Made by a program: the position numbers and the translations under genes
Source of the DNA: Candidatus Moraniibacteriota bacterium
Lineage (GTDB): Bacteria; Patescibacteriota; Minisyncoccia; Moranbacterales; GCA-2747515
DNA length: 64,000 bases
Direction: 5' to 3'
Assembly: GCA_027031495.1 (NCBI GenBank)
Contig: JALVQA010000009.1
Span: 16,898-80,897 of the forward strand
Notes under the pieces: model-generated
Database searches by the model: none
Told to the model about the DNA's origin: nothing
Seen by the model: the letters and a program-made list of their open reading frames with translations, nothing else
Part shown: positions 39,984 through 61,498 of the stretch, in pieces
Position numbering within the stretch: position 1 is the first letter of the stretch
Layout of the letters: every line of letters begins with the position of its first letter

Positions 39984-40946
39984 TTAATCCTTTTTTTGTT
40001 GTGGAAAAATGCTACTTAGATGCTCGTATATGTTAACAGCCCACTCTGTAATATCTTCCCTTCTCTTAAAATTGACATTATCAGGTATAAATATCTGAGG
40101 CGGGAACTTGACCCTCTTGACATCAAGAGGTTCCCTTCCAGTCCTTTCATAGAGATCATCTTCCCACTGTTCGATTGCATTTCTGTCAATATCTGCAAAC
40201 GCATGTGCAATGAATCTAATAGCCATATTAATATCACTCATCAAAGCATCATGTACTATGCTCCGCATTTTATCACGCATTCTAATCACACCTTGTTCGT
40301 CATTATCACTTCGGTAGATATTACCAGATCTTTCAAGTGCAGCGATCGCATCAATGTATCGCGGAATATCATTAGAAAATATTTGACGTAACATTTGCAG
40401 TGCTTCTTCTTTTTCTTTTGCTAATTGCTCCCATTCTTCCTCAGGGTGATCTCCTTCTTCTAATGTCGCACTTTTTATAAGACTTATAGCGTTTTTTACA
40501 TACTCTTCAGGAGTTTGTGGCATTTCTTTTTCATGATGGGACGCTGAGGTATCTCGCTTTTCGCTTTCTGTTTTAGTGGATACTGTGGCGATTTGAGGTT
40601 CTTCCCTACCAACATTTCTATCAGCGTTATATCTCTCTTCTTCTGTATCCTTATGTCGCATTTTAAACCTCATGTATCTCTCATACTCTTTACTACCCGG
40701 CGAAAATGGTGCATTGTGATAAAGTCTTAGCGTTCTTTGTATTCCTTTGGCTTCTTCGCGACGCAGTTTTCTTTCTTGTTCTTTATCTTCTTGAATTCTA
40801 TTGACATTTTCTTGCCCTTCTTGCTTGCTTTCTGCGGCATAACAATTAAGGCTTCCTCCAGCATGCTCATTGGAATAATTTCTACCGCCCTCTAAATACA
40901 TCATACTTTTAATGCTATGACTACATATTATTCTATACATGCTCAA
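39984..40946 (-). CDS. Hypothetical highly charged protein (320 aa)
   Basis: A long ORF in an AT-rich segment, rich in E/K/R. I recognise no family. Confidence 0.45.
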   Translation of the reverse strand: MSMYRIICSHSIKSMMYLEGGRNYSNEHAGGSLNCYAAESKQEGQENVNRIQEDKEQERKLRREEAKGIQRTLRLYHNAPFSPGSKEYERYMRFKMRHKDTEEERYNADRNVGREEPQIATVSTKTESEKRDTSASHHEKEMPQTPEEYVKNAISLIKSATLEEGDHPEEEWEQLAKEKEEALQMLRQIFSNDIPRYIDAIAALERSGNIYRSDNDEQGVIRMRDKMRSIVHDALMSDINMAIRFIAHAFADIDRNAIEQWEDDLYERTGREPLDVKRVKFPPQIFIPDNVNFKRREDITEWAVNIYEHLSSIFPQQKKD

Positions 40947-42163: not shown

Positions 42164-43479
42164 TTAGAGAAATATGGAATCATGCATGATAAAGACACAG
42201 TACACTATGATGCACAATACAACGTTATACAGAATTTGTATATGCAGGAGCTTTTGCGGAATATGTGCCAGCGCGATAATAGCCAATAGCCCCGGCAGGC
42301 TGTAGCGTGGCTCAATCAACCAGTGCAACGCCAATGATGCCACGGTGGCACCGGCCCACAACAGTGCCAGCGTTATATTACGCCAGTGCAACGCAAAGAG
42401 TGTTCCCAACGCGACAACCACAACGACATATGAAACGCCTCGGGCAAATGGTGCTGTTGCAATGGCAATAAGCACATCGTTATGCAAGAAACGCTCTGCT
42501 GTTACGAAATTGTAAGCGTGATCTATGACAAACGTCTTGTCATAGAAAAACCACCCGGCGAGAATGAGTAGCACCAACCCCACTTTTTGCATCCGAGACA
42601 GCCGTGAGATATTACGCATGATGTCCGCACTGATGCAACAACCAGTGGCAAAAACAGCACCGCAAAACATAGCAAAGAGAAATAGATATTCCCCCAGTGC
42701 AATGCACCTGCCGGATGGGCACTCTTGTCTCCCAGTGCCACGCCGCCATTAATGACAACAAATCCGGCAAACGCAGCCATCACCAGCCCATATGGAAAAT
42801 ACCACAAGAGAAACTGCCATGAACCCACTCTCTGTAGCAACGCTATCCAATGGCGACGCTGTATTGGAACACGCACGCGCCCATAAATATCTACAAGCAT
42901 GAATGCCACAACGGCAGCGGCAATGTATATCACCATATCCTGGCGCACGAGTAGTGTCAGTGCAAAGAGGCCGGCAGCAGCCCAATGACATCGCTTGTAT
43001 GCCAGTGCCACCGCCAAGAGAAAGAGTGAGACTGCCGGGATATCCGTATACACAATAAACGTGAAGAGAAACACTAGTGGCAGTGTGAGTACAGCAAACA
43101 TCTCTTCTTCTGCACGCCCTGTTGTCCTCACAAGCACATAGATTCCCAGCACAAGGAGTATGCCAAACACCGTTGCGGAAATATACCGAATATGGCGCTG
43201 CTTTGGATACTTCCCAAATGGATGCGCTATCACCTGTACACCACGTGCAACATAAGCTACGGCGTAGTGGTAGCCGGGAATATTGGTGAGGTTTTCAAAA
43301 TCCGCCTGTGACTGAATCTTGTCGCTATAGATGCGCTTGATCATCTTGCTGTGTACTTTTTCATCACGCCGAAAACCCTTTTCTGTCGCAAGCATGAAGA
43401 GTGCAATAGCCTGCAAGAGAATGAGTGCTATGATCGCTGTCCGATGACGTGACCAGAAGCTTTGTGTTGTCTGTGCCAT
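42164..43479 (-). pseudogene. GT-C-type (ArnT/PMT-like) polytopic membrane glycosyltransferase, apparently split by a frameshift into 318-aa and 168-aa ORFs
   Basis: Two same-strand ORFs (42523..43479 and 42164..42670) overlap in different frames. The tail of the first and the head of the second look out of frame. Combined length is about 480 aa, similar to the neighbouring 497-aa membrane protein. Confidence 0.45.
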
Positions 43480-43501: not shown

Positions 43502-44995
43502 TTACTGCAGCCATTGTGGCATCATCCACCCAAGCACGTTGTGCGCTACCGGTGTCGGCAGTGCACTCCAGCGCGCGGCAAGCTCTGCGTCCGAGAGCGC
43601 ATCCACTTGCGTCGGCGTCAGGTGCAACAACTGCGCAATCTTCGTTTTCTTGACCAACAGCGTCACGCGTCCTTGGCGAAACACCACGCGGTAATCGCCA
43701 CTCTCAGCAATACTGCGACGGTATGACATCTTGCGTGTCTCCAATGCCGGACGCTTTGTGCGCTTCTTGTCAGCATATTTGCTGCGCTTGAGGAGAACGT
43801 AATCCGTTAGTTGCCGATTATCCGGCAGGAAAAACTCCGCGCGCCGATTCACATGCGGTCCTACCGATGCGTCCGCTGTCACGCTCCCGCCATCCTTGAT
43901 CTGCCGCACTGCGGCATCCAGCGCATCCGTGTGCACACTCGTTTTGAAGTCCATGCGGTCCAGGAAGTGCGGCACGCCGGCAATCACCAGCCACAGTGCC
44001 ACAACCGCAAACAGCGCCTTCTGCCGCCACTTCCCTTGCCACCGCGCGGCAAGCTCAACGAAAATTATCACAAGCACCGGCGGGATAAGGACAAACACAT
44101 GACTGCCGCCGTTGATGCGCCCGTAGATGATAATCACCAGCGCAATCAGCAGCGACGGGATCAACAAAATGCTGTACCGGCTTGCAAGCGGCAGCACCCA
44201 CGCAAGCGGTGCGAGCCACTCCCCCACGCGCTTGAGTCGCTTGGCAAACTTTGGGACCTCGCCGTGAAGCGCATTGAGAAATTGCTGCTTGATATAGTCG
44301 GATGACCCAAACCCGACGGTAATGAAGAACTTTGCCGCCAGTTGCAGTGCCACACCCGCCACCATCGGCGGCAGCACCCACTTCCAGCTGCGCCGCTGCC
44401 ACAGTGCCAGCACACCCACGAGAAACAGCGTCGGCGAGACAAATTCACTCACAAGCGCCATCGCTAACACCAGCACTAAAAACCGCTTGTACCACCGCTC
44501 GCGGTATGCCATCAGTAACCACAAGAAAAACACCCCGCCGATTGCCACCACATGCATCGGACCGATCACCTGCTTGAGTGTCAGCGGATGTAGCAACCAC
44601 AGCGCGAGCGCTAGATATGCCGCAAGCCACCCAAGCCGCCGCGCCACATAGAAGTACAGCGTCAGCGCGCCGGCAGCAAAGAACGTCTGGATGATAAACA
44701 ATAGCGTCAGTGTGTGCGGCACGAGTGCATACAGCGGTAGGTATAGGAACTGTACGATGTTCAGGTGCTCGCGCAGATTGAACTCATTGCCAATCAAAAA
44801 ACTCTGATGAAACAGCCGCCCGGTAAACACCGTATTCCACAGCGCCTGCTCCGCCACCGCCGTGTCACCGGTACTGAACACATACCCCTCGTACTTCTTG
44901 TGCGTCGCGGCCATCCACACACCAAGCATACACACAACTAACACTACAGCAAGCACGTTGTGCCATGTTAATATGGATTTCTTTATCATAGCCAT
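43502..44995 (-). CDS. Polytopic membrane protein, GT-C/DUF2079-like (putative glycosyltransferase)
   Basis: Has about 10 N-terminal TM helices plus a C-terminal soluble domain. The segment is GC-rich relative to the neighbours. Confidence 0.5.
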   Translation of the reverse strand: MAMIKKSILTWHNVLAVVLVVCMLGVWMAATHKKYEGYVFSTGDTAVAEQALWNTVFTGRLFHQSFLIGNEFNLREHLNIVQFLYLPLYALVPHTLTLLFIIQTFFAAGALTLYFYVARRLGWLAAYLALALWLLHPLTLKQVIGPMHVVAIGGVFFLWLLMAYRERWYKRFLVLVLAMALVSEFVSPTLFLVGVLALWQRRSWKWVLPPMVAGVALQLAAKFFITVGFGSSDYIKQQFLNALHGEVPKFAKRLKRVGEWLAPLAWVLPLASRYSILLIPSLLIALVIIIYGRINGGSHVFVLIPPVLVIIFVELAARWQGKWRQKALFAVVALWLVIAGVPHFLDRMDFKTSVHTDALDAAVRQIKDGGSVTADASVGPHVNRRAEFFLPDNRQLTDYVLLKRSKYADKKRTKRPALETRKMSYRRSIAESGDYRVVFRQGRVTLLVKKTKIAQLLHLTPTQVDALSDAELAARWSALPTPVAHNVLGWMMPQWLQ

Positions 44996-45054: not shown

Positions 45055-46134
45055 TCATTTATTTGCAATAATCTTCATGATCTTTTCAGCACTTTTACCG
45101 TCGCCAAATGGATTTGTCCATACGACATCCTTTTTTATGAGAGCACTGGCACTTGTTAAGATACGCTCATTGTCACTGTTACCAACAAGGACGCAGCCAC
45201 CAACATCAACAGCTTCTGGTCGCTCCGTATTCTCACGCAAAACGATACACTTCTTTTTTAGAATACATGATTCTTCTTGTAAACCGCCACTATCCGTTGC
45301 AATAAGAACTGCCATCTTCTGTAACATGAGCATGTCAAGATAACCAACAGGATCGATAGTTGTAAAATTTTGTGGCAGAGTGATATGAATTTTTTCTATC
45401 ATCTTTTTGGTTCGTGGATGCGCCGGGAAAACGACACGAACATTATGCATTTTTGCAATTTTCGATACAGCTCCTATAACTACCTTCAAATTGCTCTCAA
45501 CATCAACAGTCGCCGGTCTATGTGCTGTCATCAATATATAGTCATCACCACTCAAATTAAGTGTTTGTAAGATCTTTGATTTTTGTTCAGCAATCTGTAC
45601 ACCTTCCAGAACAGCGTCAACAATCGTATTACCAACAGTAAAGATCTTTGAGCCCTCAATCCCTTCTGTCATTAGGATATCAGCCTGTCTTTTTGTCGGC
45701 GCAAAAAGGTAATCTGATACATGATCGGTTACAATACGATTGATTTCTTCCGGCATAGAACGGTCATAGCTCCTTAGACCTGCTTCAACATGCCCAACTT
45801 TTATATCTATCTTTGACGCAACAAGCGCCGCTGCCATAACAGTATTTGTATCTCCTTGCACAAGCACGATATCAGGATTCTCTTTTTGTAGCACTTTTTC
45901 TATTTCTATCATCATACGTCCCGTCATTTCGCCATGACTTCCAGAACCAATGCCGAGATTATACTTAGGCTGCACTAGCTCAAGTTCATCAAAAAATATT
46001 TTGTCCATATTCTCCGAATAGTGCTGATTCGTATGTATAACGAAATACTCTTTGTTGTAATTCTCGCAAAATCTGATAATCGGTGCCATTTTAATAATTT
46101 CCGGCCGCGTTCCAAGAATAATTGCTGTTTTCAT
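45055..46134 (-). CDS. wecB: UDP-N-acetylglucosamine 2-epimerase (non-hydrolysing)
   Basis: Carries MKTAIILGTRPEIIKMAPI...QGDTNTV...HVEAGLRS, the typical WecB/MnaA motifs. I chose the start at the internal Met (codon 16 of the listed ORF). Confidence 0.9.
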   Translation of the reverse strand: MKTAIILGTRPEIIKMAPIIRFCENYNKEYFVIHTNQHYSENMDKIFFDELELVQPKYNLGIGSGSHGEMTGRMMIEIEKVLQKENPDIVLVQGDTNTVMAAALVASKIDIKVGHVEAGLRSYDRSMPEEINRIVTDHVSDYLFAPTKRQADILMTEGIEGSKIFTVGNTIVDAVLEGVQIAEQKSKILQTLNLSGDDYILMTAHRPATVDVESNLKVVIGAVSKIAKMHNVRVVFPAHPRTKKMIEKIHITLPQNFTTIDPVGYLDMLMLQKMAVLIATDSGGLQEESCILKKKCIVLRENTERPEAVDVGGCVLVGNSDNERILTSASALIKKDVVWTNPFGDGKSAEKIMKIIANK

Positions 46135-46144
46135 AAAAAAATGA

Positions 46145-48271
46145 TTATCTAATCTTCTTTGCCAAAAGACGCTCACCATCTATAACTTGCATTGCAATTT
46201 TGTCCAATACTCTTTTATTAGTTTTAACCCACTCTTTCTTATTTATTTTGTCTTCACTATAACTGTTTAAAAATCTCTTATAAGAAATATACTTATAACC
46301 TAATTCATCAAAATCACCAATTTGTACTGTATCAACAATTGGAATAATATCATGCTGCAAATATTCTATAAGTTTGGTTGGGCAAGCTGCGCGATTCACA
46401 ATAACATCTTCACGCAACACGAGTCCAAAATCAGCCTTGTTGTACCAATATTTTACATCGTCTGGTCCGGCAGATATAACTATACCTGGAAATGATTCCC
46501 GAAACTTCTTAGTATAAATGTCTTTTAATTCATCTGGCTGAGGAACAAGAAATACAAAATCATATCTTTTCTGTAGAGAATGCACAAAATCAAGCATCTT
46601 GTGTACTTGTTGCCACTTCTGTAATCCGCCGCAATAGATAATAACTTCTTTATCTTTTATTGATTTCATTGTTGGCTTTGCGCTCCCGCTAGAGGAAGTC
46701 GGAAAGATTGGCAAAAGTAATATTCTTGATTTTTTAAGGAAAGAATACTTACATCTTAAGTGCTTTGCCATCATATTTGTGACAACAATAACTACATTAG
46801 CTCTTCTAATAGCAAATTTTTCTATTTCATTAAAATCTTTGTAGCCAATTTTGTCACCATGAAAGAGAAACTCTTCTGGAACAACACCGTGAACATCAAG
46901 AATTCTTTTTCTAGCAGTTCTGAAAAGAATTCTATGCAATTTAGAATTTAAACGAAGAATACTATGCAAATAAATCCTCCCAGAAAGAATGTGCACAATA
47001 AGAAGAGCAAGAAATCCTATCGGATTCTTCTTATTAATTGATATTTCAAAGGTGTTAGCATTAATTTTGTTAATCATTCTAAAATCATTGCGAGATATCT
47101 TCCCGGAATAGTATCTTACATAAAATTTTAGGTATACTGACAATATTTTATCGATAGCATTAACTCTCTGAAAGTAGCCATCTTTTAGATCATCTTCGGT
47201 AGGATAATGTACTAGAAATAATATTTTTCGCGTTAATACGATATATGATATCCTTTTGTATCGTATATGTATAAAACGCCATATTCTATTCAAAAGATTA
47301 TAGAAACGTAACGATGCTTTTATAAAAAGGCTATCGCATTTCTGAGTTATATTTGTTAAGTGATCGATTGTACTCACTATTATCTCGTAGTAGTTGTCAA
47401 AAACATTCTTCGCATACTTATCATCATTATGCGACAGTAGAAAATGCATATCTTGTTTGAAGCCAAGATATGGTAAAAGACTCCTGTCTTTCCAAGTAAT
47501 ATTGTGCTTATATTCAAATATAGTCTTATTCTTCTGCAAATGTCGCATTAGTTTGCGCACTGGAATTTGCGAAAAAGATGCGGTACCCCAATGGTATAAG
47601 AAAACGTCTCTTGCTATGTGCATTTTGAATCCTGCATTTAAAATGCGCAAACAATAATCATCGTCTTCGAACGCACCGCGCCCGAAAATCTCATCAAGAT
47701 ATCCCACCTTCAAAAATAGCTCACGCGTCCCGATAAAACAAAAAAAACCTAGAAAATTCGTTTCTTTTACAAAATTCTCAAATAAGATATACCTTTTTTG
47801 AGCAAATTTATTAATTTTTTCAAAGTTATTATCGCAAGAATCCAATTGTAAATCTGTAGCAATTGTTTGCTCATTTCCACAAGCATTTGTTACGGGACCA
47901 ATCGCATCAGAATCATGAGCAATTAGACGGTCTAGCCAGTAATCAGTAAGAATAACATCACTATTCAATAGGCAAATATGTGTAATATCATCTTCTTTAA
48001 GAAATTTTTTGATACCAATGTTGTTACCACCTGGAAAACCAGTATTATGATTCATTCGAATTAACTCATCGTCAAAATCGACGCGCTCTTTCTTTAATAA
48101 ATCAAACGCACGTTTAATTTTTTTAAATTCTGCCAATCTTGATGCATTGTCAATAACACAAATACTAAAACGTGTATCATTCTTTGCGCGCACCAAAGAA
48201 TCTAAACACTGCTCAACAACATCAGCTCTATTATAAGTGAGTATGACAATGCCAACTCTTATCTCATTCAT
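46145..48271 (-). CDS. Multidomain glycosyltransferase (N-terminal GT2 + C-terminal GT1/GT4-like)
   Basis: The GT2 motifs are VGIVILTYNR...VIDNAS, a DxD and FEDDDYCLR. The C-terminal part (about 230 aa) is Rossmann-like. The segment is very AT-rich. Confidence 0.8.
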   Translation of the reverse strand: MNEIRVGIVILTYNRADVVEQCLDSLVRAKNDTRFSICVIDNASRLAEFKKIKRAFDLLKKERVDFDDELIRMNHNTGFPGGNNIGIKKFLKEDDITHICLLNSDVILTDYWLDRLIAHDSDAIGPVTNACGNEQTIATDLQLDSCDNNFEKINKFAQKRYILFENFVKETNFLGFFCFIGTRELFLKVGYLDEIFGRGAFEDDDYCLRILNAGFKMHIARDVFLYHWGTASFSQIPVRKLMRHLQKNKTIFEYKHNITWKDRSLLPYLGFKQDMHFLLSHNDDKYAKNVFDNYYEIIVSTIDHLTNITQKCDSLFIKASLRFYNLLNRIWRFIHIRYKRISYIVLTRKILFLVHYPTEDDLKDGYFQRVNAIDKILSVYLKFYVRYYSGKISRNDFRMINKINANTFEISINKKNPIGFLALLIVHILSGRIYLHSILRLNSKLHRILFRTARKRILDVHGVVPEEFLFHGDKIGYKDFNEIEKFAIRRANVVIVVTNMMAKHLRCKYSFLKKSRILLLPIFPTSSSGSAKPTMKSIKDKEVIIYCGGLQKWQQVHKMLDFVHSLQKRYDFVFLVPQPDELKDIYTKKFRESFPGIVISAGPDDVKYWYNKADFGLVLREDVIVNRAACPTKLIEYLQHDIIPIVDTVQIGDFDELGYKYISYKRFLNSYSEDKINKKEWVKTNKRVLDKIAMQVIDGERLLAKKIR

Positions 48272-48282: not shown

Positions 48283-50622
48283 TTATAAAAGCTCTTTATA
48301 TAATTTATCGTACTGTTTTGACATATTTTCTACAGTATATTTCTCCTTGATTTTTTTGCGTCCTTGCAATGCTTTTTTGCGCCATGTTGTATGATTACGA
48401 TACATCGCAACCATAGCATTTTTAATGCTATCGATATTCTTAATATTTTTATCGTTAGTATAAAAATTATGCACATCTTTTGGAGATATATCTGAGACAT
48501 CATTATACGGATTATCTACTATAATGCCAATGTCAGAATCATTAATTACATCTCTTGCAGATCCAATATCCGACAAAATCATTGGCAACTGCGCATACAT
48601 TGCCTCTAAAACAGCAATGCTACAACCTTCAATAAGTGATGGCATAATAAAACAGTCTGACATCTGTAATATGCTCATAACCTTTTTCTTCGGCATATAT
48701 TTCATAATGCGAATATTTTTGTCGAGATGCCGTTTTTTAATCTCACTTGCTATATAATCATAGCATGATTTGTCCAAAATATTGCCCATAAAAATCATTT
48801 TGAACTTTGGATATTTTTCAATGAGCCGATCCATTGCAACGACCATGCTAATATGGAATTTATGCCAGTTAAATGAAGCAATATTAATAAAGATAAAATC
48901 ATCTTCAGAAAATCCATATACATCACGGCATCCTTTTTCAAAATTTTTCACTAAATCTACATTGATACCATTTAATATAACAGAAATGTTATCTTTTTCG
49001 ATATGAAATTTTTCTGTGAAGTATTCCTTTACCTGACTTGAAACAGCAACAAACCGATCAATGCCCGCATAAAACCTCTTTCTAGATTTAATAAATTCTT
49101 TGTCAGCCCAGATATAGTTGTTATGTATCGTGTAGACACTTTTAATACCCAATTTTCTATATATATCGAAACCAAAATCACTGTAGTGAAAATGTATAAT
49201 ATCGGGTCGGTATTTATTTAGCACTTTCTTTAAAAGAAACCTGTTTCCATGTAGATTAATTACGTTAATTCCGCTTTTTTTTGCAACTTTTTCCATGTAC
49301 CCATTCTTACCAAATGATGCAATTACACAAACATTGTAGGTTTCTTTAAGTGAACGAGCCAGAGCAAAGACAACCTCTTCTAATCCACCTTTATCAAAAG
49401 AATGCACTTGCAAAAAAATTAATTTCGCTTTTCTTTCATTAAAATGTAAACGTTGTTGATTTATTGACAAAAGAGCGTGAAAGAATAAAATACCATTTTT
49501 TATGTTGGTTAAAGGCACATACTTCATTAAACAAAAATTCTTGGTTTTTTCTTTGCAATGCCTTACAAAGATATTCGGTTTCTTTATAACTCTCGTAATA
49601 TTTTTTTTATAACGAACGTACACATTTCTCAATTGCCAAAATTTTGATGATTTCATATATCGAATTTCAAAATCTTTCTGTGCATTCACTTTTTCTTGCT
49701 CAGCTATCTGTTTTGAGAGTTGTGCATTCACTTTTTCTTGCTCAGCTATCTGTTTTGAGAGTTGTGCATTCACTTTTTCTTGCTCAGCTATCTGTTTTGA
49801 GAGCTTATTTATTTGTTCCAAAAGAATGTAGAATTTTTCATCTCTTTTTGTTCCTTTGTTTAAAAAGGCATCACTTGCAAGATTAACAACGTCTTCATAA
49901 CTAAAATCATCACTACCAGTCAAAAAAACCACCTTATTATGACGTAATTTATCACTGATAAAATTAGCTATTTCTCGTTGCTTTGCGCTATCCGTATAAT
50001 CAATATTTAAAAAATCACAAACTCTTCGTAATTCTTTATGCGCATCAACAAAATAGTTATCAAAGAATGTAAAAATCCTATCTTTGCCTTTCGTGTATTT
50101 TAAAATTGATCTAATATACGTTAACCACAACATTATACCATCGTCCAGGTTAATGCCATCACGCTTGTGTAATGACGCCGCTACATTTGCTGGATGCCTA
50201 ACAGGAATCACATATTTCATATGCGGAATAACTTTTTGCCAAAAAGGAAGCGTCAACGACGTTCTCGGCTCCTTAAATCCCCAAATTTCATGTGCACCAT
50301 TCATTTTTTTAACAACTTCTCGTGCTCTTTCATACAACTGATTTAATCTCTTATCGTCTTCCCATTTATCAAGAAGTCTTGGCGGCATGTCCCACGTACC
50401 GCCAAAGGTTTCGAGTATCTTTTCATTAATATGAAGAATTTCTATATTCTCCCAATGTCCCTTTATATTTTCACTATAACTCTTTGTCATGATGTTTTTC
50501 TCATCACCAAGAGATAGGCCACAAATATTCAAAAGGCGTGTTATCATTGACGTACCACTTCTGTGCATTCCCAGTATACAGACAACTGTATTCTCTTTCC
50601 TGTTCATAATTTTGTTCAGCAT
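48283..50622 (-). CDS. Sulfotransferase-glycosyltransferase (GT4) fusion protein with tandem-repeat coiled-coil linker
   Basis: The N-terminal domain has a PAPS 5'-PSB loop (GMHRSGTSM) and a 3'-PB motif (VRHPANVAAS). The linker is LSKQIAEQEKVNAQ x3. The C-terminal GT4 has the EX7E-type motif (PSLIEGCSIAVLEAMYAQLPMI). I chose the start at an internal Met to avoid overlap with sat. Confidence 0.8.
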   Translation of the reverse strand: MLNKIMNRKENTVVCILGMHRSGTSMITRLLNICGLSLGDEKNIMTKSYSENIKGHWENIEILHINEKILETFGGTWDMPPRLLDKWEDDKRLNQLYERAREVVKKMNGAHEIWGFKEPRTSLTLPFWQKVIPHMKYVIPVRHPANVAASLHKRDGINLDDGIMLWLTYIRSILKYTKGKDRIFTFFDNYFVDAHKELRRVCDFLNIDYTDSAKQREIANFISDKLRHNKVVFLTGSDDFSYEDVVNLASDAFLNKGTKRDEKFYILLEQINKLSKQIAEQEKVNAQLSKQIAEQEKVNAQLSKQIAEQEKVNAQKDFEIRYMKSSKFWQLRNVYVRYKKNITRVIKKPNIFVRHCKEKTKNFCLMKYVPLTNIKNGILFFHALLSINQQRLHFNERKAKLIFLQVHSFDKGGLEEVVFALARSLKETYNVCVIASFGKNGYMEKVAKKSGINVINLHGNRFLLKKVLNKYRPDIIHFHYSDFGFDIYRKLGIKSVYTIHNNYIWADKEFIKSRKRFYAGIDRFVAVSSQVKEYFTEKFHIEKDNISVILNGINVDLVKNFEKGCRDVYGFSEDDFIFINIASFNWHKFHISMVVAMDRLIEKYPKFKMIFMGNILDKSCYDYIASEIKKRHLDKNIRIMKYMPKKKVMSILQMSDCFIMPSLIEGCSIAVLEAMYAQLPMILSDIGSARDVINDSDIGIIVDNPYNDVSDISPKDVHNFYTNDKNIKNIDSIKNAMVAMYRNHTTWRKKALQGRKKIKEKYTVENMSKQYDKLYKELL
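49681..49806. repeat. Three perfect 42-nt tandem repeats inside the sulfotransferase-GT4 gene
   Basis: tgcattcactttttcttgctcagctatctgttttgagagttg occurs three times, identical at the nucleotide level. It encodes a 14-aa heptad-like repeat. Confidence 0.9.
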
Positions 50623-50626
50623 TTTA

Positions 50627-51694
50627 TCAATCAACAAATATGCTTTTTCTACTCTCCAAATACGCCACAACCTCTTTCCGCATAAATTTATCAGGAATTT
50701 CTTCTTTTTCGATCAGTCTGCGACGCAACTCTGTACCGGATAAAAAGACTTTGTCATCATCTGTGTGCGGACACGTACCATCAGGCGTCATGTTCTCACA
50801 CTTTTTACAATAACACACATTGTTATATTTGAATATTTTAATACAAAGTTCATCCTCACGAAACCGCTTGAAAATATTTTGTGCATCATACGTACCATAA
50901 TAATTGCCGACACCGGCATGGTCGCGTCCGATAATCATGTGCGTGCACCCAAAATTTTTCCGTACTTGCGCATGGAAAACAGCCTCACGCGGACCGGCAT
51001 AGCGCATATAGGTGTGAAATGTTGACAATTCAACCGTATCTTTTTTGTAGTAGCGCTCAATGAGAATGTTATAAGCGCCGATGATGTATTCATCCTTGAT
51101 ATCACCTTCCTTTTTTGGCCCGATAACCGGTTGAATAAGGAGACCATCTACCTGTGCTAGAGCACGTTTTTGCAAGAATTCATGTGAGCGGTGTGGTGGG
51201 TTGCGTGTTTGAAACGCAACAATATGCGTCCAAGCGTGTTTCTTAAAGATCTCCTTCATTTCTGCCGGTGTTTTGTAGTATGGATACGTATTTTTAAATT
51301 CGCGCCCGACAACACGATCTACGTTGCCGCCGACAAAGTATTCCTTCAATCCATATAACCGCGCAACGCCGGGATGTTTTTTGTCGGTTGTGCCATAAAG
51401 TGCCTGCGCCATGCGATCACGATCAATTTTATAGATACTTGGTTTGGAAATATAGAACTGTTTACCTTCTCTGTTTTCAATAATAAAATCGTTGTCACCA
51501 ATCTCTTCTTTTTGCTCACGTGTTATGTCAAGAATAATTGGCATCGCCCATATGCGTCCATCTGTCAGACGGAAATGTGTGGCAATGCTCTCAAAATCGT
51601 CCTTGCCCGTAAAACCTTTTAGTGGCGCGTAAACACCATCAGCAATATTGCACGCCTCTTGCATGACAACATCATCAACAAGTATTTTCTTCAT
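50627..51694 (-). CDS. sat: Sulfate adenylyltransferase (ATP sulfurylase, homo-oligomeric Sat type)
   Basis: Carries QTRNPPHRSHE and GRDHAG motifs. Confidence 0.9.
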   Translation of the reverse strand: MKKILVDDVVMQEACNIADGVYAPLKGFTGKDDFESIATHFRLTDGRIWAMPIILDITREQKEEIGDNDFIIENREGKQFYISKPSIYKIDRDRMAQALYGTTDKKHPGVARLYGLKEYFVGGNVDRVVGREFKNTYPYYKTPAEMKEIFKKHAWTHIVAFQTRNPPHRSHEFLQKRALAQVDGLLIQPVIGPKKEGDIKDEYIIGAYNILIERYYKKDTVELSTFHTYMRYAGPREAVFHAQVRKNFGCTHMIIGRDHAGVGNYYGTYDAQNIFKRFREDELCIKIFKYNNVCYCKKCENMTPDGTCPHTDDDKVFLSGTELRRRLIEKEEIPDKFMRKEVVAYLESRKSIFVD

Positions 51695-51701: not shown

Positions 51702-52490
51702 TCATTCTCTAGAGCAGAGTGTCATATCACCGTTTGTTACAATATAGCCGTTGCGTAATTTTGTGTTGGCACAATTATAAAAAATTCTGCGCCCTTTTTT
51801 GTCACAAATATTCCCGCCGGCTTCACGCACAATAACATCGCCGGCGCAAATATCCCATATACCGCTTTTATCACTGGAGTTAATGTAGAGCTCCGCCTCA
51901 CCTGCTGCAATTTTGCACATTTTAAGACCTGCTGATCCCATGGGAATAGGCCGCATACTATACAGGCGAGCGATGTCTTGCTCCCATGTGCCCAGATGAT
52001 TTCTGCTTGTTAGAATTCTGCCACCCTTTAGTGGTTTTTTGCTGACAAAAATGCGTTCTTTCACAGAACCTCTTTGCAAGAAAGCGCCCGTATCACGGAT
52101 GGCATAGTACAGAACATCCATTGCCGGTGCATACACAACGCCGGCAACAGCACACCGGCTACTATCAATCAAACCAATCATAATGCTGAAGTCACCGGTT
52201 TTTTGAATAAAATCCTTTGTGCCATCAATAGGATCAATAATCCAGATGTATTCACTTTCAGATGCCACAGAAGTATCACCACCTTCTTCACTGAGAACCG
52301 GAAAGCTATAACGTGATAATTTGTCTGTCACAAGACGATGCACTGCCATGTCCGCTGCTGTAACAGGAGATTTGTCGCGTTTCTGCTCAATGGCATACGA
52401 CGCATTATAAAACGTCAGTGCAACGTCACCGGCTGCACGCGCTATGTCAATAATGTCGTCAATTTCAATGGGAATGCTTTTTAGCGTCAT
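51702..52490 (-). CDS. cysQ: 3'(2'),5'-bisphosphate nucleotidase (CysQ/IMPase family)
   Basis: Carries EEGG and WIIDPIDGTKDFI as IMPase metal-binding motifs. It lies between sat and cysC. I chose the start at the internal Met (MTLKSIPIE...), since the listed ORF overlaps cysC. Confidence 0.75.
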   Translation of the reverse strand: MTLKSIPIEIDDIIDIARAAGDVALTFYNASYAIEQKRDKSPVTAADMAVHRLVTDKLSRYSFPVLSEEGGDTSVASESEYIWIIDPIDGTKDFIQKTGDFSIMIGLIDSSRCAVAGVVYAPAMDVLYYAIRDTGAFLQRGSVKERIFVSKKPLKGGRILTSRNHLGTWEQDIARLYSMRPIPMGSAGLKMCKIAAGEAELYINSSDKSGIWDICAGDVIVREAGGNICDKKGRRIFYNCANTKLRNGYIVTNGDMTLCSRE

Positions 52491-53010
52491 TGTATTTCTT
52501 TTCAATATATGCAATGATTTTTTGTACACTTTCATCAATGCTCTCCTTCTCCGTATCAACCACAATCTCCGGCTTTGTCGGCTCTTCAAAAGGATCTTGT
52601 ACGCCTGTAAAATCTTTAATCTCACCTCTCTTTGCTTTCGCATACATCCCCTTTACGTCTCGCTCCATACACTTCTTTACACTTGCCCTTACGTACACTT
52701 CCACAAAATTTTCACCAATGAGCGCACGCGCACGTTCGCGCATATGACGATACGGTGATACAAACGCCATGGAAACATTAATGCCATTGTTTGCAAGCAT
52801 TTGTGCTACATAAGAAAGGCGTTCAATATTCGCCTCTCTATCAGCTTTGCTGAACCCAAGATCTTTGCTGATTGTTGTGCGTACAACATCACCATCAAGA
52901 CGTTGAAACGGCAAATCCTTTTGACGAAAATACTCCTCAATCCCCAGCGAAAGAGTCGTTTTACCACTACATGGCAGTCCCGTAAGCCACAAAACGATAC
53001 CATTTTTCAT
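52465..53010 (-). CDS. cysC: Adenylylsulfate (APS) kinase
   Basis: Carries GLPCSGKTT as the P-loop. Length and motifs match CysC. Confidence 0.9.
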   Translation of the reverse strand: MKNGIVLWLTGLPCSGKTTLSLGIEEYFRQKDLPFQRLDGDVVRTTISKDLGFSKADREANIERLSYVAQMLANNGINVSMAFVSPYRHMRERARALIGENFVEVYVRASVKKCMERDVKGMYAKAKRGEIKDFTGVQDPFEEPTKPEIVVDTEKESIDESVQKIIAYIEKKYNDAKKHSH

Positions 53011-53016: not shown

Positions 53017-54315
53017 TTAGCGTTTTTTTGACCACTTATGTTCAATGCGCATTATACCACCACCAGCACCTTCTTTATGCACGATTTTGACAATCTTTTC
53101 GTTTATTTCCTTACACGAAATAGTATCAATAATAACAATATCATTATCACCCTTTCTCTCAAAAACAACAGCGCGTACATAGATTTCACCCATATTAAAC
53201 ACATTGTCTTTGAAGAAAATTTTGATTGTATTTTTTCCCGTGCGCCACTTGCAATCAAAATGGTCATTATGCGTATTATTGCCGCAAAGAAAAGCATCGT
53301 TACTGTTATCAAAAATTTGCACCGCAAGAAAAAGGTTTTTTCTTCGTCGCCTCACATCAACCGTCGTTTCAATACTAAACGGTTCACCATGTGCAATTTC
53401 CATCAATTCATTGCCACGTGCATCAAACAACTGTATATCTTCTATGACAGCATCTTTTTCTTTTCTTCCCTTCTCCTTGTTCTTTTTTATTTCTTTTTCC
53501 CGCTCTTCTTCTTGTCTCTTTATGTGTTCTCTCTCTTCCAATTCTTTCCTCTGACGAGCATGCATGTTTTTCGCAATATACGCATCACACACGGTATCAA
53601 CATCACCAACTTCAAGAACTGTGCCGTTGTGTAACAACAATGCGCGGTTACAGTACTCACGCACAATACCTATGTCATGCGTTACAAGAATAACTGTTTT
53701 TTCTTGGTTCTTGTATCTCTTAAAAGTATCAAGGCACTTCTTTTGAAAGTTACTGTCCCCTACCGCGAGGACTTCGTCCATCAGGAGAATGTCGCGGTTG
53801 GCGTGGATGGAGACGGCGAAGGCGAGGCGGACTTGCATGCCGCTGGAGTAGTTTTTGAGCTTCTGATCTATGAAACGTTCCAGCTCGGCGAAGCGCACAA
53901 TGTCGTTGAATTTCTTGTCAATCTCCTTGCGCGAGAGCCCGAGTACCGTCGCGTTCAGGTACACATTGTCCCGCCCGGAGAGCTCCGGATTGAAGCCAAT
54001 CCCCAGTTCCAGAAACGGCGAGATCCGCCCATTGACCGTGACGCGTCCGCTGTCGGGGCGGTAAATCCCGGCGAGGATTTTCAGGAGTGTACTCTTACCC
54101 GAGCCGTTGCGCCCGATGATGCCAAAAAACTCTCCCTTTTTAACGCTAAAACTTACTTTATCCAGCGCCTTGAATTCTTCGTACGTACGGTCGCCCTTGA
54201 AGGCACTCACAAACGCCCCGCGCAGGCTACTGACCTTCTCATGCGGGATGCGAAACATCTTGGAAACATTATGCACGTCAATTGCATTCTTTAATTGTGT
54301 CTTTTTTGTACGCAT
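53017..54315 (-). CDS. ABC transporter ATP-binding protein for polysaccharide export (Wzt/TagH-like) with C-terminal extension
   Basis: Walker A is GRNGSGKST, the signature is LSGGMQVRLAF and Walker B is ILLMDEVLAVGD. An extra C-terminal domain of about 180 aa is as found in Wzt. Confidence 0.85.
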   Translation of the reverse strand: MRTKKTQLKNAIDVHNVSKMFRIPHEKVSSLRGAFVSAFKGDRTYEEFKALDKVSFSVKKGEFFGIIGRNGSGKSTLLKILAGIYRPDSGRVTVNGRISPFLELGIGFNPELSGRDNVYLNATVLGLSRKEIDKKFNDIVRFAELERFIDQKLKNYSSGMQVRLAFAVSIHANRDILLMDEVLAVGDSNFQKKCLDTFKRYKNQEKTVILVTHDIGIVREYCNRALLLHNGTVLEVGDVDTVCDAYIAKNMHARQRKELEEREHIKRQEEEREKEIKKNKEKGRKEKDAVIEDIQLFDARGNELMEIAHGEPFSIETTVDVRRRRKNLFLAVQIFDNSNDAFLCGNNTHNDHFDCKWRTGKNTIKIFFKDNVFNMGEIYVRAVVFERKGDNDIVIIDTISCKEINEKIVKIVHKEGAGGGIMRIEHKWSKKR

Positions 54316-54337
54316 CTTTTCGATTATAATACAGTTC

Positions 54338-55120
54338 TTATACCTTCTCTGCAATAGACGGAATCAGGCGACGATATACCCAGATGCTAAATGCAAACGC
54401 GCCGGTAAGAATTGCAACGAACAGCAGCGTCTGGTGCGCATCCGGCAAGTGGTCTTGTGTGAGCGCCATCTTGGTAAAATGCCCGATAAACGCCAGTGGA
54501 TTGAGTAAAATCCACTTATGATACTGCGCCGGCAACAGTGAGAGCGGATAGATGATCGGTGAGGCATAAAAGAGAATCTGTACTACCACATCCCAAATCA
54601 ATGCAATATCACGAAACAAAACCTGTAGTGGTGCTGCCATGAGTGAGAATGACACGATCAGGATAAACAGTGCCAGTGAGAATAAAATGAACAATCCAAT
54701 CGCCTGTAACGACGGCACGAGGTGATACAGCGCAAAAAACAAAATAATCACCGCAATATTCGCGATGTAGATTATCGCGCTATTGAGTGTTGCCGCAAAG
54801 ATAATTGCCCAGCGCGGCACATAGATTTTTGTGACGAGTTGCGACTTGTTTAGGAGTGCATTAAGACCCGCATTTGTTCCCTCCGCAAAAAAATTAAACA
54901 TCATGATCCCGACAAGTAGCTCCAACGCGTAGTAATTTGTCCCATCATTACGCATATTAAAAATAGATGAGAACACAAAGTACAGCACCGTAAATGTCAA
55001 CAGCGGTTTTAGGAGTGCCCAAACATACCCAAGAATAGACCCTTGGTAGCGTAATTTAAAATCCATTTTTGCCAGCATCCAGATGAGTTCTCTGTAGCTC
55101 TCGTGCTGCAACTCTTTCAT
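54338..55120 (-). CDS. ABC-2 type polysaccharide export permease (Wzm/TagG-like)
   Basis: It has six TM helices and an ABC-2 signature region. The gene overlaps the Wzt start by a few nt. Confidence 0.85.
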   Translation of the reverse strand: MKELQHESYRELIWMLAKMDFKLRYQGSILGYVWALLKPLLTFTVLYFVFSSIFNMRNDGTNYYALELLVGIMMFNFFAEGTNAGLNALLNKSQLVTKIYVPRWAIIFAATLNSAIIYIANIAVIILFFALYHLVPSLQAIGLFILFSLALFILIVSFSLMAAPLQVLFRDIALIWDVVVQILFYASPIIYPLSLLPAQYHKWILLNPLAFIGHFTKMALTQDHLPDAHQTLLFVAILTGAFAFSIWVYRRLIPSIAEKV

Positions 55121-60593: not shown

Positions 60594-60690
60594 CATGTAT
60601 TCTGTATTTAGGCAAATCACTAAGACGCCCAAGACCTCTAGGCGCGTATACGCCTATTGTACAGTATTTTGCATTAGATGCAAAAATGCA

Positions 60691-61455: not shown

Positions 61456-61498
61456 GTGTACATTATACAACAGACATTAAAAATAGTGACGCACGTCT

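What the first reader, a model, noticed from the sequence alone, without database searches (positions are those of the whole stretch)
48283..50670. Single polypeptide fusing a PAPS-dependent sulfotransferase to a GT4 glycosyltransferase
The N-terminal domain of about 270 aa carries both PAPS-binding signatures. The 5'-PSB is GMHRSGTSMI and the 3'-PB is VRHPANVAAS. It is joined through a repetitive coiled-coil linker to a canonical GT4 retaining glycosyltransferase domain. The fusion implies coupled glycosyl transfer and sulfation of the same acceptor. This is an unusual architecture that could define the chemistry of the product.
Basis: partly seen in the sequence, partly recalled or inferred. 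Interest (0 to 1): 0.75.

Follow-up and report, generated by a model that had tools for sequence, protein, structure and literature searches.

The report
Sulfotransferase-capped glycan polymerase with helical ruler
A candidate-phylum (Patescibacteria) bacterium encodes one protein that joins a sulfate-adding enzyme, through a long repetitive helix, to a sugar-adding enzyme inside an ABC-transporter glycan operon with its own sulfate-donor genes; it most likely builds a surface polysaccharide and ends each chain with a sulfate cap, a cap chemistry not yet described for this well-known chain-length-control design.

Summary
A single uninterrupted ORF on the minus strand (48283-50670) encodes an intact PAPS-type sulfotransferase domain, a ~90-residue helical linker containing a perfect 3x42-bp tandem repeat, a cationic amphipathic helix, and an intact GT4 glycosyltransferase with its EX7E motif.

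The architecture is not rare. The sulfotransferase family has about 1,600 to 15,000 cluster representatives. About 91% of members with an N-terminal sulfotransferase carry a coil-like stalk right after it, and many are fused to GT2, GT4 or other GT modules.

The gene sits in a tight operon: wzm, wzt (with Wzt_C cap-binding domain), APS kinase, CysQ, ATP sulfurylase, the fusion, a GT2-GTB protein and UDP-GlcNAc 2-epimerase. Syntenic relatives keep the coil end, GT4, GT2 protein and epimerase. They replace the sulfotransferase head with a methyltransferase, GT2 or GT8 and lack the PAPS genes.

This matches the polymerase-terminator "molecular ruler" design (WbdD, WbbB, Klebsiella O7 ORF6). The best reading is a sulfate-capping chain terminator fused to a polymerase module. 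Sulfation of every repeat unit is the main rival. I rate it a new variant of a known kind, of moderate interest. No chemistry has been shown.

The parts
48283..50670 (-). Whole ORF. It is 795 aa from TTG 50670. Likely true starts are ATG 50622 or ATG 50607 (774 aa = P0001). The stop codon is 48283-48285.
49930..50607 (-). PAPS-type sulfotransferase domain (P0001 aa 1-226), the proposed chain-terminating 'head'.
50548..50571 (-). 5'-phosphosulfate-binding loop GMHRSGTS (aa 13-20). H15, R16, S17, G18 and S20 are invariant in the family.
50449..50451 (-). E53, an invariant Glu in the N-x-x-G-x-W-E motif and a candidate catalytic base. E36, in the TPST-like 'LG-x-E' position, is the alternative.
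   Evidence: inference on role
50263..50274 (-). K112-E-P-R115 (family consensus WGxKDPR). It aligns with the NKDP catalytic Lys segment of TPST.
50173..50199 (-). 3'-phosphate-binding motif R137-x7-S145 (RHPANVAAS). Both residues are invariant.
49582..49845 (-). Long polar helical linker (aa 255-342). AF2 models one continuous helix at 255-319 plus a second at 322-342. Proposed spacer or 'ruler'.
   Evidence: The heptad test is not significant.
49679..49803 (-). Perfect tandem repeat, 3.0 copies of 42 bp (14 aa, two heptads in length), inside the linker.
49579..49656 (-). Conserved junction 'MKSSKFWQLRNVYVRYKKNITRVIKK' (aa 318-343). The SSKFW motif is shared with the head-swapped relatives. 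A cationic amphipathic helix at aa 325-343 (muH 0.64) is inferred to be a membrane-surface anchor.
48286..49422 (-). GT4 (GT-B, retaining-type) glycosyltransferase domain (aa 396-774), the proposed polymerase module.
48604..48630 (-). GT4 EX7E motif EGCSIAVLE (aa 660-668), conserved in the clade.
54338..55120 (-). Wzm, ABC-2 permease.
53017..54354 (-). Wzt, ABC ATPase with a C-terminal Wzt_C carbohydrate-binding domain (35.1 bits, cutoff 30.4).
52465..53010 (-). APS kinase (CysC).
51702..52643 (-). CysQ-type 3'(2'),5'-bisphosphate nucleotidase (PAP removal). The true start is probably near 52490.
50627..51694 (-). ATP sulfurylase (Sat) with a PUA-like domain.
46145..48271 (-). 708-aa GT2 plus C-terminal GT-B-like protein, starting 11 nt downstream of the fusion. 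It is 50% identical to the partner gene in the syntenic loci.
45055..46179 (-). UDP-GlcNAc 2-epimerase (WecB-type), which would supply UDP-ManNAc.
43502..44995 (-). DUF2079 membrane protein, which recurs near the syntenic cluster L006. A role as extracytoplasmic glycan transferase is possible (inference).

Best explanation
The protein is a bifunctional polymerase-terminator of an ABC-transporter-dependent surface glycan in a Patescibacteria (Moranbacteria-like) cell.

**Proposed mechanism.**
1. The C-terminal GT4 module, together with the adjacent GT2-GTB protein and UDP-ManNAc from the epimerase, extends a lipid-linked polysaccharide at the cytoplasmic face of the membrane. A cationic amphipathic helix just upstream of the GT4 would hold that end at the membrane.
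2. The N-terminal sulfotransferase is held roughly 100-130 A away on a long helix. It uses PAPS made by the three operon-encoded enzymes: ATP sulfurylase, APS kinase and CysQ for PAP removal.
3. When the growing non-reducing end reaches the sulfotransferase, it is sulfated, and this stops elongation.
4. The sulfate cap is then read by the Wzt C-terminal carbohydrate-binding domain, which licenses export by Wzm/Wzt.
5. Linker length, variable through 14-residue tandem repeats, would set the modal chain length.

**Shown:** domain identities, intact motifs, operon content, and head-swap synteny.

**Inferred:** the acceptor, terminal rather than internal sulfation, oligomerisation of the helix, membrane anchoring, and the ruler function.
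For: **Domains are intact.**
- All invariant family residues are kept and map to TPST PAPS-binding and catalytic positions.
- The GT4 fold has TM about 0.8 to retaining GT4s, and the EX7E motif is present.

**Operon.**
- On one strand, with gaps between -44 and +11 nt once the probable later CysQ start is used (its longest ORF overlaps CysC by 179 nt): wzm, wzt+Wzt_C, cysC, cysQ, sat, fusion, GT2-GTB, wecB.
- The sulfotransferase is the only non-GT modifying enzyme in the cluster.
- Wzt carries the CBD that marks cap-dependent systems (PMC9445017).

**Match to the known design.** A terminating enzyme at the distal end of a long helix with GT modules at the other end is the described hallmark of polymerase-terminator systems (PMC11231755).

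**Natural head swaps.**
- P0124 and P0128 keep the coil end, the 'MKSSKFW' junction and the GT4 (45% and 40% identity) but carry a SAM methyltransferase head. Methyl is a proven cap.
- Locus L003 is syntenic: GT2 protein 50% and WecB 64% identical, preceded by wzt, with no PAPS genes.
- L006/L007 have a GT2 head plus an amino-sugar-type cassette (ATP-grasp, methyltransferase, aminotransferase) in the place of our PAPS genes.

**The layout is general in the family.**
- 98 of 108 proteins with an N-terminal sulfotransferase have a coil-like stalk, median about 90 aa.
- Short members end after a basic/aromatic helix, which is the WbdD layout.
- 12 of 120 have tandem repeats in the stalk, 9 with periods that are multiples of 7.

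**Context of relatives.**
- L002 has Wzt+Wzt_C, APS kinase and a sulfotransferase-coil-GT4. L004 has wzm-wzt directly upstream.
- Of 80 genome loci, 28 have a Wzt-like ATPase (>=35% identity). 17 of those carry a C-terminal extension, and in 10 the sulfotransferase gene starts within 300 nt of the wzt stop, the wzt-wbdD order.
- Cultured Pseudomonas koreensis has wzm, wzt+Wzt_C, a sulfotransferase-RgpF-WbsX protein, APS kinase and a WecA-like gene.
Against: - No chemistry exists. A sulfate cap has not been reported in any paper I could search.
- The only documented bacterial sulfated ABC-pathway glycans I found are sulfated on every repeat unit (Cobetia).
- The linker shows no significant heptad periodicity, so dimeric or trimeric coiled-coil formation is unproven. 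It could be a single alpha-helix.
- Wzt CBD similarity does not clearly track head type. Identity is 26.5% to the sulfotransferase-type L002 versus 20% to the methyltransferase-type L003. Only the CPR locus L084 is detectable by tblastn.
- 10 of 28 neighbouring Wzt proteins lack a CBD extension.
- A three-gene PAPS pathway for one sulfate per chain looks expensive, although this organism may have no other PAPS source.
- The protein is known from a single metagenomic contig, so the repeat copy number could be an assembly artefact.
Confidence: 0.55

Rival explanations
1. Internal (per-repeat) sulfation. The sulfotransferase decorates many or all repeat units of the polymer made by the GT modules. 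This resembles sulfated capsules, where sulfotransferases and PAPS genes sit in an ABC-transporter cluster. The helix would then be only a scaffold or oligomerisation element that keeps the modifying enzyme in the assembly complex.
For: - Cobetia marina CPS is Rha2S in every repeat, with PAPS genes and sulfotransferases in a KpsMT cluster (PMC11766843).
- A dedicated three-gene PAPS supply suits stoichiometric sulfation.
- Some related clusters carry a second, stand-alone sulfotransferase (L002, L084).
- 10 of 28 neighbouring Wzt proteins lack a CBD.
Against: - The head-on-a-stalk layout is near-universal in this family and is the recognised marker of terminators.
- The same GT4/GT2/WecB backbone cluster occurs with a methyltransferase head and no PAPS genes.
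- Wzt here has a cap-binding-type domain.
- A long rigid spacer is hard to rationalise for an enzyme that must act next to the polymerase at every cycle.
Confidence: 0.27
2. The two catalytic domains act in direct succession on the same sugar. GT4 adds a residue and the sulfotransferase immediately sulfates that residue, for example in a short oligosaccharide or glycolipid rather than a polymer.
For: They are fused in one polypeptide. GT4 enzymes often make single additions to lipid-linked or small acceptors (BshA, PglA and PimA among the fold neighbours).
Against: - A helical spacer of ~90 residues, expandable by repeats, separates the domains.
- The operon contains Wzm/Wzt with a CBD and additional multi-module GTs, typical of polymers.
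- The sulfotransferase head is fused to many unrelated GT types, and often to none, so it is not tied to this GT4's product.
Confidence: 0.08
3. The sulfotransferase acts on a non-glycan acceptor, for example protein tyrosine as in TPST or RaxST. Alternatively it is catalytically inactive and serves as a binding module.
For: The closest solved structures are tyrosylprotein sulfotransferases. One family-conserved Asp is Glu here (D113E).
Against: - Identity to TPSTs is only 15-17%. All PAPS-binding and catalytic-type residues are kept.
- The context is exclusively glycan assembly plus PAPS supply.
- Family members are embedded in GT-rich, Wzm/Wzt-linked loci across phyla.
Confidence: 0.05

Closest known systems
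Klebsiella pneumoniae O7 ORF6 and O12 WbbB (single-polypeptide terminator, coiled coil, polymerase GT modules)
   Same: The order of parts is the same: an N-terminal terminating enzyme, a long helical spacer, and C-terminal GT module(s). The gene sits next to wzm/wzt in an ABC-transporter-dependent cluster, and further polymerase modules lie in a neighbouring protein, as in O7 (PMC11231755).
   Different: - The head is a PAPS sulfotransferase rather than a methyltransferase-kinase (O7) or Kdo transferase (O12).
- The GT module is GT4 rather than GT2 or GT1/GT25.
- The operon carries its own donor-synthesis cassette (Sat, CysC, CysQ).
- The host is a CPR bacterium without LPS.
- The coiled-coil character of the spacer is not demonstrated.
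E. coli O9a/O8 WbdD (kinase/methyltransferase, coiled-coil ruler, C-terminal amphipathic helix)
   Same: A catalytic head sits distal to a long helix, followed by a basic amphipathic membrane-proximal helix. The gene order is wzm-wzt-terminator. Wzt has a cap-binding CBD. Short members of the sulfotransferase family (about 450-530 aa) have exactly the head-coil-helix layout.
   Different: There is no sequence or fold relationship between the heads. Here the polymerase module is fused rather than recruited. The proposed sulfate cap is unproven.
Head-swapped relatives found here: P0124/P0128 (methyltransferase-coil-GT4), P0123 (GT2-GT4), P0131 (GT8-GT4)
   Same: The junction motif (SSKFW/Y) and the GT4 are homologous (40-52% identity). 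The neighbours are syntenic: the ~700-aa GT2 protein, WecB, upstream wzt and DUF2079.
   Different: The N-terminal catalytic head differs, as does the precursor cassette between wzt and the fusion gene. None of these relatives has been characterised.
PAPS-dependent sulfotransferases with solved structures: TPST1/2, olefin synthase and CurM sulfotransferases, mycobacterial Stf9/Stf1/Stf0
   Different: Identity is only 13-19%. There is a ~16-residue longer segment between the PSB loop and the invariant Glu. The family-specific motifs NxxGxWE and LTLPFWQ are distinct. The acceptor is presumably a glycan terminus.
Sulfated bacterial polysaccharide clusters (Cobetia/Vibrio sulfated CPS; cyanobacterial synechan)
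   Same: Sulfotransferase and PAPS-synthesis genes are embedded in a polysaccharide cluster, and in Cobetia the route is ABC-transporter export.
   Different: Those sulfotransferases are stand-alone enzymes that decorate each repeat unit. No coiled-coil stalk and no fusion to a polymerase module are described.

Membership tests
PAPS-dependent sulfotransferase superfamily (Pfam Sulfotransfer_1/_3) | Profile match above the curated threshold | tested here: met
   PF00685 scores 35.8 bits (cutoff 22) and PF13469 scores 35.5 bits (cutoff 27).
PAPS-dependent sulfotransferase superfamily (Pfam Sulfotransfer_1/_3) | P-loop-like 5'-PSB motif and 3'-PB Arg...Ser motif | tested here: met
   GMHRSGTS and R137-x7-S145 are invariant in the family and align to TPST GVPRSGTT and R...S.
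PAPS-dependent sulfotransferase superfamily (Pfam Sulfotransfer_1/_3) | Sulfotransferase alpha/beta fold | tested here: met
PAPS-dependent sulfotransferase superfamily (Pfam Sulfotransfer_1/_3) | PAPS-dependent sulfuryl transfer activity | not testable with these tools
   This needs an enzyme assay. Co-operonic Sat, CysC and CysQ are circumstantial support.
GT4 retaining glycosyltransferases (GT-B) | Profile matches to both Rossmann halves | tested here: met
   PF13439 scores 79.3 bits and PF00534 scores 91.8 bits.
GT4 retaining glycosyltransferases (GT-B) | GT-B fold and EX7E motif | tested here: met
   Foldseek TM is about 0.8 to 7mi0, HepE and BshA. EGCSIAVLE at aa 660-668 is conserved in the clade.
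GT4 retaining glycosyltransferases (GT-B) | Donor and acceptor specificity; processive or polymerase role | not testable with these tools
   There is only context: a WecB neighbour and HexNAc-transferase fold neighbours.
Polymerase-terminator 'molecular ruler' proteins of ABC-transporter-dependent glycan pathways (WbdD / WbbB / O7 ORF6 type) | Encoded in a cluster with wzm/wzt | tested here: met
   wzm and wzt lie about 2.3 kb upstream on the same strand in the same tightly packed gene run.
Polymerase-terminator 'molecular ruler' proteins of ABC-transporter-dependent glycan pathways (WbdD / WbbB / O7 ORF6 type) | Wzt carries a C-terminal cap-recognising CBD | tested here: met
   Wzt_C (PF14524) scores 35.1 bits against a cutoff of 30.4. 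Its ligand specificity is unknown.
Polymerase-terminator 'molecular ruler' proteins of ABC-transporter-dependent glycan pathways (WbdD / WbbB / O7 ORF6 type) | A non-polymerase modifying enzyme at the end of an extended coiled coil, distal to the GT or membrane end | tested here: inconclusive
   - The domain order and a continuous 65-residue helix (plus a further 21 residues) are predicted.
- The stalk is general in the family.
- The heptad periodicity of this linker is not significant.
- Oligomerisation could not be modelled.
Polymerase-terminator 'molecular ruler' proteins of ABC-transporter-dependent glycan pathways (WbdD / WbbB / O7 ORF6 type) | Membrane-proximal amphipathic helix or polymerase at the other end of the coil | tested here: met
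   A cationic amphipathic helix at aa 325-343 (muH 0.64) is followed by the GT4 module. Membrane binding itself is inferred.
Polymerase-terminator 'molecular ruler' proteins of ABC-transporter-dependent glycan pathways (WbdD / WbbB / O7 ORF6 type) | The modification is added once, at the non-reducing terminus, and stops elongation; spacer length sets chain length | not testable with these tools
   This needs glycan structure determination and linker-length mutants. Indirect support comes from methyltransferase-headed syntenic homologues.
Sequence homologue of WbdD or WbbB | Detectable sequence or fold similarity of the head or GT modules to WbdD/WbbB | tested here: not met
   No WbdD or WbbB chain appears among the PDB sequence or fold hits. 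The resemblance is architectural only.

The most novel reading that the evidence does not exclude
Sulfate is a previously unrecognised chain-terminating, export-licensing cap in ABC-transporter-dependent glycan assembly. It would be installed by a very large, phylum-spanning family of stalk-mounted PAPS sulfotransferases: at least 585 genome loci and 1,642 to 15,246 cluster representatives. The family includes cultured Pseudomonas, Paenibacillus and Alicyclobacillus as well as CPR bacteria. In this reading the stalk is a ruler whose length evolves rapidly through heptad-multiple tandem repeats, and CPR cells display length-controlled, sulfate-tipped surface glycans using a self-contained PAPS cassette.
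Probability: 0.45. Interest if true: 0.7.

Novelty: new variant of a known kind. Interest (0 to 1): 0.58.

Why it matters
If the sulfotransferase head is a terminator, the list of known caps (methyl, phosphate/methyl-phosphate, Kdo) gains an anionic sulfate. The cap-binding domains of the matching Wzt transporters would then have to recognise a sulfated sugar, which is a new specificity to study structurally.

The family is large and occurs in cultured bacteria, so the idea is directly testable. Pseudomonas koreensis is one example, with wzm, wzt+CBD, a sulfotransferase-GT-GT protein and cysC.

For candidate-phyla-radiation bacteria, which live attached to host cells and have tiny genomes, a dedicated PAPS pathway spent on a surface glycan suggests that sulfated glycans matter for their cell-surface biology.

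The natural head swaps on a constant GT4/GT2/epimerase backbone also show how such clusters diversify by cassette exchange. That is useful for glycoengineering of defined-length, end-functionalised polysaccharides.

Tried and rejected
1. **Plus-strand reading of the coordinates.** It is full of stops. The gene is on the minus strand.
2. **Exact-sequence look-up of P0001 for its contig and organism.** Taxonomy was obtained instead from SecY homologues.
3. **Genome-contig scan.** It did not recover the source genome, only relatives.
4. **Profile search of PDB with the full-length-homologue alignment A3.** It was swamped by GT2 domains of the fusion partners. I repeated it with an alignment of the sulfotransferase domain alone, A4.
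5. **Covariation of the Wzt CBD with head type.** Identities are all low (20-27%) and the pattern is mixed, so it is not used as evidence.
6. **Heptad a/d and Fourier tests for a canonical coiled coil in this linker.** They are not significant, so I describe it as a long helix, possibly a coiled coil or a single alpha-helix.
7. **The conserved SSKFW stretch as an amphipathic helix.** Its hydrophobic moment is unremarkable (0.32, p = 0.33). The amphipathic segment lies just downstream, at aa 325-343.
8. **Literature searches for sulfotransferase terminators, sulfate caps, sulfated O-antigen termini, and Patescibacteria sulfotransferases.** Nothing relevant was found. The key review (JBC 2020, 'made to measure') is not held.
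9. **Assembly chimera or hidden frameshift joining two genes.** I rejected this because NCBI's independent gene call is identical. Full-length same-architecture relatives also exist (P0006, P0097, P0037, P0109, P0011), and syntenic loci have the same gene order.

Full report

Yes, with one correction: the gene is on the minus strand. The ORF list shows a single uninterrupted reading frame at 48283..50670 (-), 795 aa from a TTG. The plus-strand translation of the same coordinates is full of stops.

The upstream ATP sulfurylase gene ends at 50627. ATG codons at 50622 and 50607 are more plausible starts. An identical 774-aa protein starting at 50607 exists once in the 5.8-billion-protein collection, from an NCBI record on an 86.7-kb contig (P0001).

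Pfam places sulfotransferase models above their curated thresholds at the N-terminus. Both halves of a GT4 enzyme are found at the C-terminus.

The linker contains a perfect 3.0 x 42-bp tandem repeat at 49679-49803, encoding 3 x QLSKQIAEQEKVNA.

**2. Are the two catalytic domains intact?**

*Sulfotransferase.*
- An AF2 model of aa 1-262 is confident (pLDDT 88.4).
- In alignments of 55-63 homologues the invariant residues are H15 R16 S17 G18 S20, G34, N47 G50 E53, W109 K112 P114 R115, F122 W123, R137 and S145. This protein keeps all of them. The only deviation is a conservative D113E at a 98%-conserved position.
- A profile of the sulfotransferase domain alone hits tyrosylprotein sulfotransferase sequences (E=1.2e-5). 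It aligns GMHRSGTS with GVPRSGTT (5'-PSB), WGfKDPR with LCNKDPF (the catalytic Lys segment), and cLRNPldVakS with MVRDGRASVHS (3'-PB Arg and Ser).
- The PSB loop therefore uses Arg, as TPSTs do.

*GT4.*
- Sequence hits reach solved GT4 enzymes (7mi0, BshA, PglA, WaaG).
- The full-length AF2 model has pLDDT 86.5, with Foldseek TM about 0.8 to retaining GT4s.
- An EX7E motif (EGCSIAVLE, aa 660-668) is conserved in the clade.

**3. The linker.**

AF2 predicts one continuous helix at aa 255-319 (65 residues, about 97 A if straight). Further helices follow at 322-342, 345-353 and 369-384 before the GT4 begins at about aa 396.

The three 14-residue repeats make up 42 residues of the long helix. A formal test of heptad a/d occupancy and 3.5-residue periodicity is not significant for this linker (p about 0.2-0.3). 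So 'coiled coil' is an inference from relatives, not a demonstrated property here. A single-alpha-helix spacer is possible.

After the helix comes the junction MKSSKFWQLRNVYVRYKKNITRVIKK. Its downstream part (aa 325-343) has the highest helical hydrophobic moment of the inter-domain region (0.64) and is strongly cationic. This is as expected for a membrane-surface helix, but that role is inferred.

**4. Genomic context.**

The fusion is in a tightly packed same-strand run. Gaps lie between -44 and +11 nt, apart from a 179-nt overlap produced by the longest CysQ ORF, whose real start is probably later. The genes, in order, are:
- Wzm, ABC-2 permease
- Wzt, ABC ATPase with a Wzt_C carbohydrate-binding domain above threshold
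- APS kinase
- CysQ, PAP phosphatase
- ATP sulfurylase
- the fusion
- a 708-aa GT2 plus GT-B-like protein
- UDP-GlcNAc 2-epimerase
- a DUF2079 membrane protein and an ALG10-like membrane protein

The operon thus encodes a complete PAPS supply-and-recycling set, a transporter of the cap-reading type, three or four GT modules, a ManNAc-precursor enzyme and exactly one non-GT modifying enzyme.

The fusion, the GT2 protein and the Wzt CBD have markedly lower GC (0.30-0.36) than the Wzt NBD (0.49) or the window (0.44). This is typical of exchangeable, specificity-determining parts of glycan clusters.

SecY homologues place the organism in Patescibacteria, nearest Candidatus Moranbacteria: 62-68% identity to named entries and up to 90% to unnamed MAGs. 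The product is therefore not an LPS O-antigen but some other surface glycan.

**5. How common is the architecture?**

- The sulfotransferase domain alone retrieves 21,540 cluster representatives (E<=1e-3) out of 1.84 billion. Of these, 15,246 are at E<=1e-10 and 1,642 at E<=1e-30.
- A genome scan found at least 585 loci in many phyla. They include cultured Pseudomonas, Paenibacillus, Alicyclobacillus, Azospirillum, Massilia, Nitrosovibrio and Lamprocystis.
- In the 120 closest proteins the sulfotransferase is N-terminal in 108. In 98 of those a coil-like, Pro-free, charge-rich stretch follows directly (median about 90 aa, range 32-215; a crude proxy).
- Partners after the stalk include GT2, GT4, WbsX/RgpF-type GTs, methyltransferases and TPR domains, or nothing but a basic/aromatic helix.
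- Twelve of the 120 have near-perfect tandem repeats in the stalk, nine with periods of 7, 14, 28 or 35 residues.
- Full-length proteins with the same layout as ours exist: P0006, P0097, P0109, P0037 and P0011.

The exact combination with this GT4 clade is so far unique. The class is not.

**6. The informative relatives.**

Searching with the GT4 half alone shows that its nearest relatives are either stand-alone GT4s or fusions in which a different module sits where our sulfotransferase is:
- SAM methyltransferase (P0124, 45% identity over 100% of the query including the junction; P0128, 40%)
- GT2 (P0123, 52%)
- GT8 (P0131)

P0124 reads '...EIQWMKSSKFWKIKTFYEKFK...' where ours reads '...EIRYMKSSKFWQLRNVYVRYKK...'.

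P0124's locus L003 is syntenic with ours. It runs wzt (C-terminal part), methyltransferase-coil-GT4, a 685-aa GT2 protein (50% identical to our neighbour) and WecB (64%), with no PAPS genes.

P0123's loci (L006/L007) run Wzt+Wzt_C, then an ATP-grasp/methyltransferase/aminotransferase cassette, then GT2-GT4, the 695-aa GT2 protein, WecB and nearby DUF2079.

So a constant backbone module (GT4 + GT2 protein + epimerase) is combined with a variable head. Where needed, a variable precursor cassette is inserted between wzt and the head gene.

Other sulfotransferase-stalk proteins show the same context:
- L002 has Wzt+Wzt_C, a stand-alone sulfotransferase, APS kinase, then sulfotransferase-coil-GT4.
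- L004 has wzm-wzt directly upstream.
- L084, from another CPR genome, has wzm, wzt+CBD, a small sulfotransferase, then a sulfotransferase-coil-GT protein.
- P. koreensis has wzm, wzt+Wzt_C, a 1,646-aa sulfotransferase-RgpF-WbsX protein, APS kinase and a WecA-like initiating transferase.

Across 80 genome loci, 28 have a Wzt-like ATPase (>=35% identity) within 10 kb. Of these, 17 carry a C-terminal extension. In 10 the sulfotransferase gene starts within 300 nt of the wzt stop, which is the wzm-wzt-wbdD order.

**7. Mechanism.**

The published polymerase-terminator model states the following (PMC11231755):
- Chains made on the cytoplasmic face are stopped by a terminal modification.
- The terminating enzyme sits at the distal end of a coiled-coil 'molecular ruler', with polymerase modules or a polymerase-recruiting site and an amphipathic helix at the membrane end.
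- Spacer length sets chain length.

Wzt proteins with a CBD bind the cap and license export. Known caps are methyl, phosphate/methyl-phosphate and Kdo (PMC9445017).

Every architectural element of that model is present here, with a sulfotransferase as the head. The methyltransferase-headed syntenic relatives tie this GT4 scaffold to a proven cap chemistry.

I therefore favour (0.55) a sulfate-capping terminator fused to a polymerase module, with PAPS provided in cis.

- *Shown:* domain identity and integrity, operon content, family-wide stalk, head-swap synteny.
- *Inferred:* the glycan acceptor, terminal position of the sulfate, helix oligomerisation, membrane anchoring, ruler function, and CBD specificity.

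**8. Rivals.**

The main alternative (0.27) is per-repeat sulfation, as in the Cobetia sulfated capsule, whose KpsMT cluster also holds PAPS genes and sulfotransferases. A full PAPS pathway and the second stand-alone sulfotransferases in some relatives fit that reading. The stalk, the CBD and the methyltransferase swap fit it poorly.

A non-glycan (tyrosine) acceptor or an inactive domain (0.05) is suggested only by TPSTs being the nearest solved folds, at 15-17% identity.

**9. Comparison with the known, and novelty.**

Functionally and architecturally the closest systems are Klebsiella O7 ORF6, O12 WbbB and WbdD. There is no sequence or fold homology to them, so this is an analogue built from different parts.

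I found no paper describing a sulfotransferase terminator or a sulfate cap. An Aeromonas salmonicida study noted an unexplained sulfotransferase-domain ORF between wzt and wbbB. My literature access is incomplete: the principal review is not held.

I classify the finding as a new variant of a known kind. The fusion itself is ordinary within a large, uncharacterised family. The interest lies in the likely new cap chemistry, its breadth, the cis-encoded PAPS cassette in a reduced CPR genome, and the repeat-driven stalk-length variation.

**10. Caveats.**

- The protein is known from one metagenomic contig.
- The copy number of a perfect 126-bp repeat can be mis-assembled.
- The coil proxy used for the family survey is crude.
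- Association counts are limited by contig ends and by the +-10-kb window.
- No oligomer modelling was possible.

Noticed in passing
window 53017-53450 vs 53560-54354: The Wzt carbohydrate-binding domain has much lower GC (0.36) than the nucleotide-binding domain of the same gene (0.49). Its GC matches the low-GC sulfotransferase/GT genes (0.30-0.36). This suggests the CBD belongs to the exchangeable, specificity-determining part of the cluster.
   Followed up: partly
window 51702-52643 (-): The longest CysQ ORF overlaps the APS kinase gene by 179 nt. The family match starts at about aa 62, so the true start is probably the Met at about 52490 (MTLKSIPIE...).
   Followed up: partly
window 42164-43479 (-): An ALG10/DIE2-like GT-C membrane protein (318 aa) overlaps a 168-aa ORF with no family match. 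They may be one gene split by a frameshift. Together with DUF2079 (43502-44995), it could be the extracytoplasmic glycan transferase of this pathway.
   Followed up: no
window 34348-36102 (-): SecD carries an inserted PPIC-type peptidyl-prolyl isomerase (Rotamase) domain at aa 153-242, within the P1 region.
   Followed up: no
window 5322-8675 (-), 4552-5310 (-), 27598-28680 (-), 36858-38138 (-), 39984-40946 (-): Several sizeable ORFs, including one of 1,117 aa, have no Pfam match at all.
   Followed up: no
L084 9308-9961; L002 3952-4608: A small (about 217 aa) stand-alone sulfotransferase with a eukaryote-like PKTGGTT loop sits directly after wzt, in addition to the stalk-mounted sulfotransferase. 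A 216-aa sulfotransferase-domain ORF occupies the same position between wzt and wbbB in Aeromonas salmonicida and was left unexplained there (PMC4483657).
   Followed up: partly
L080 7806-19576 (Pseudomonas koreensis B1M1-15); L082 (P. sputi): Cultured pseudomonads carry wzm, wzt+Wzt_C, a 1,646-aa protein with the sulfotransferase head plus RgpF-like and WbsX GT domains, APS kinase and a WecA-like transferase. This is a tractable system for testing the sulfate-cap idea.
   Followed up: partly
P0037 aa 312-509; P0031, P0026, P0043, P0035 and others: Stalks of family members often contain near-perfect tandem repeats, up to 5.7 copies of 35 aa. Periods are mostly multiples of seven residues, which implies rapid evolution of stalk length.
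   Followed up: yes
P0138/P0140/P0142/P0143 (about 800 aa): In some relatives the same GT4 clade is N-terminal and fused to a C-terminal domain homologous to the C-terminal half of our 708-aa neighbour (window 46145 to about 47500). The GT modules of this pathway are therefore shuffled between polypeptides.
   Followed up: no
window 60913-61470 (-) and 58278-60632 (-): Upstream of the glycan operon lie a pilin-like protein with an N-terminal methylation motif and an unusually short (784-aa) SMC-family protein.
   Followed up: no
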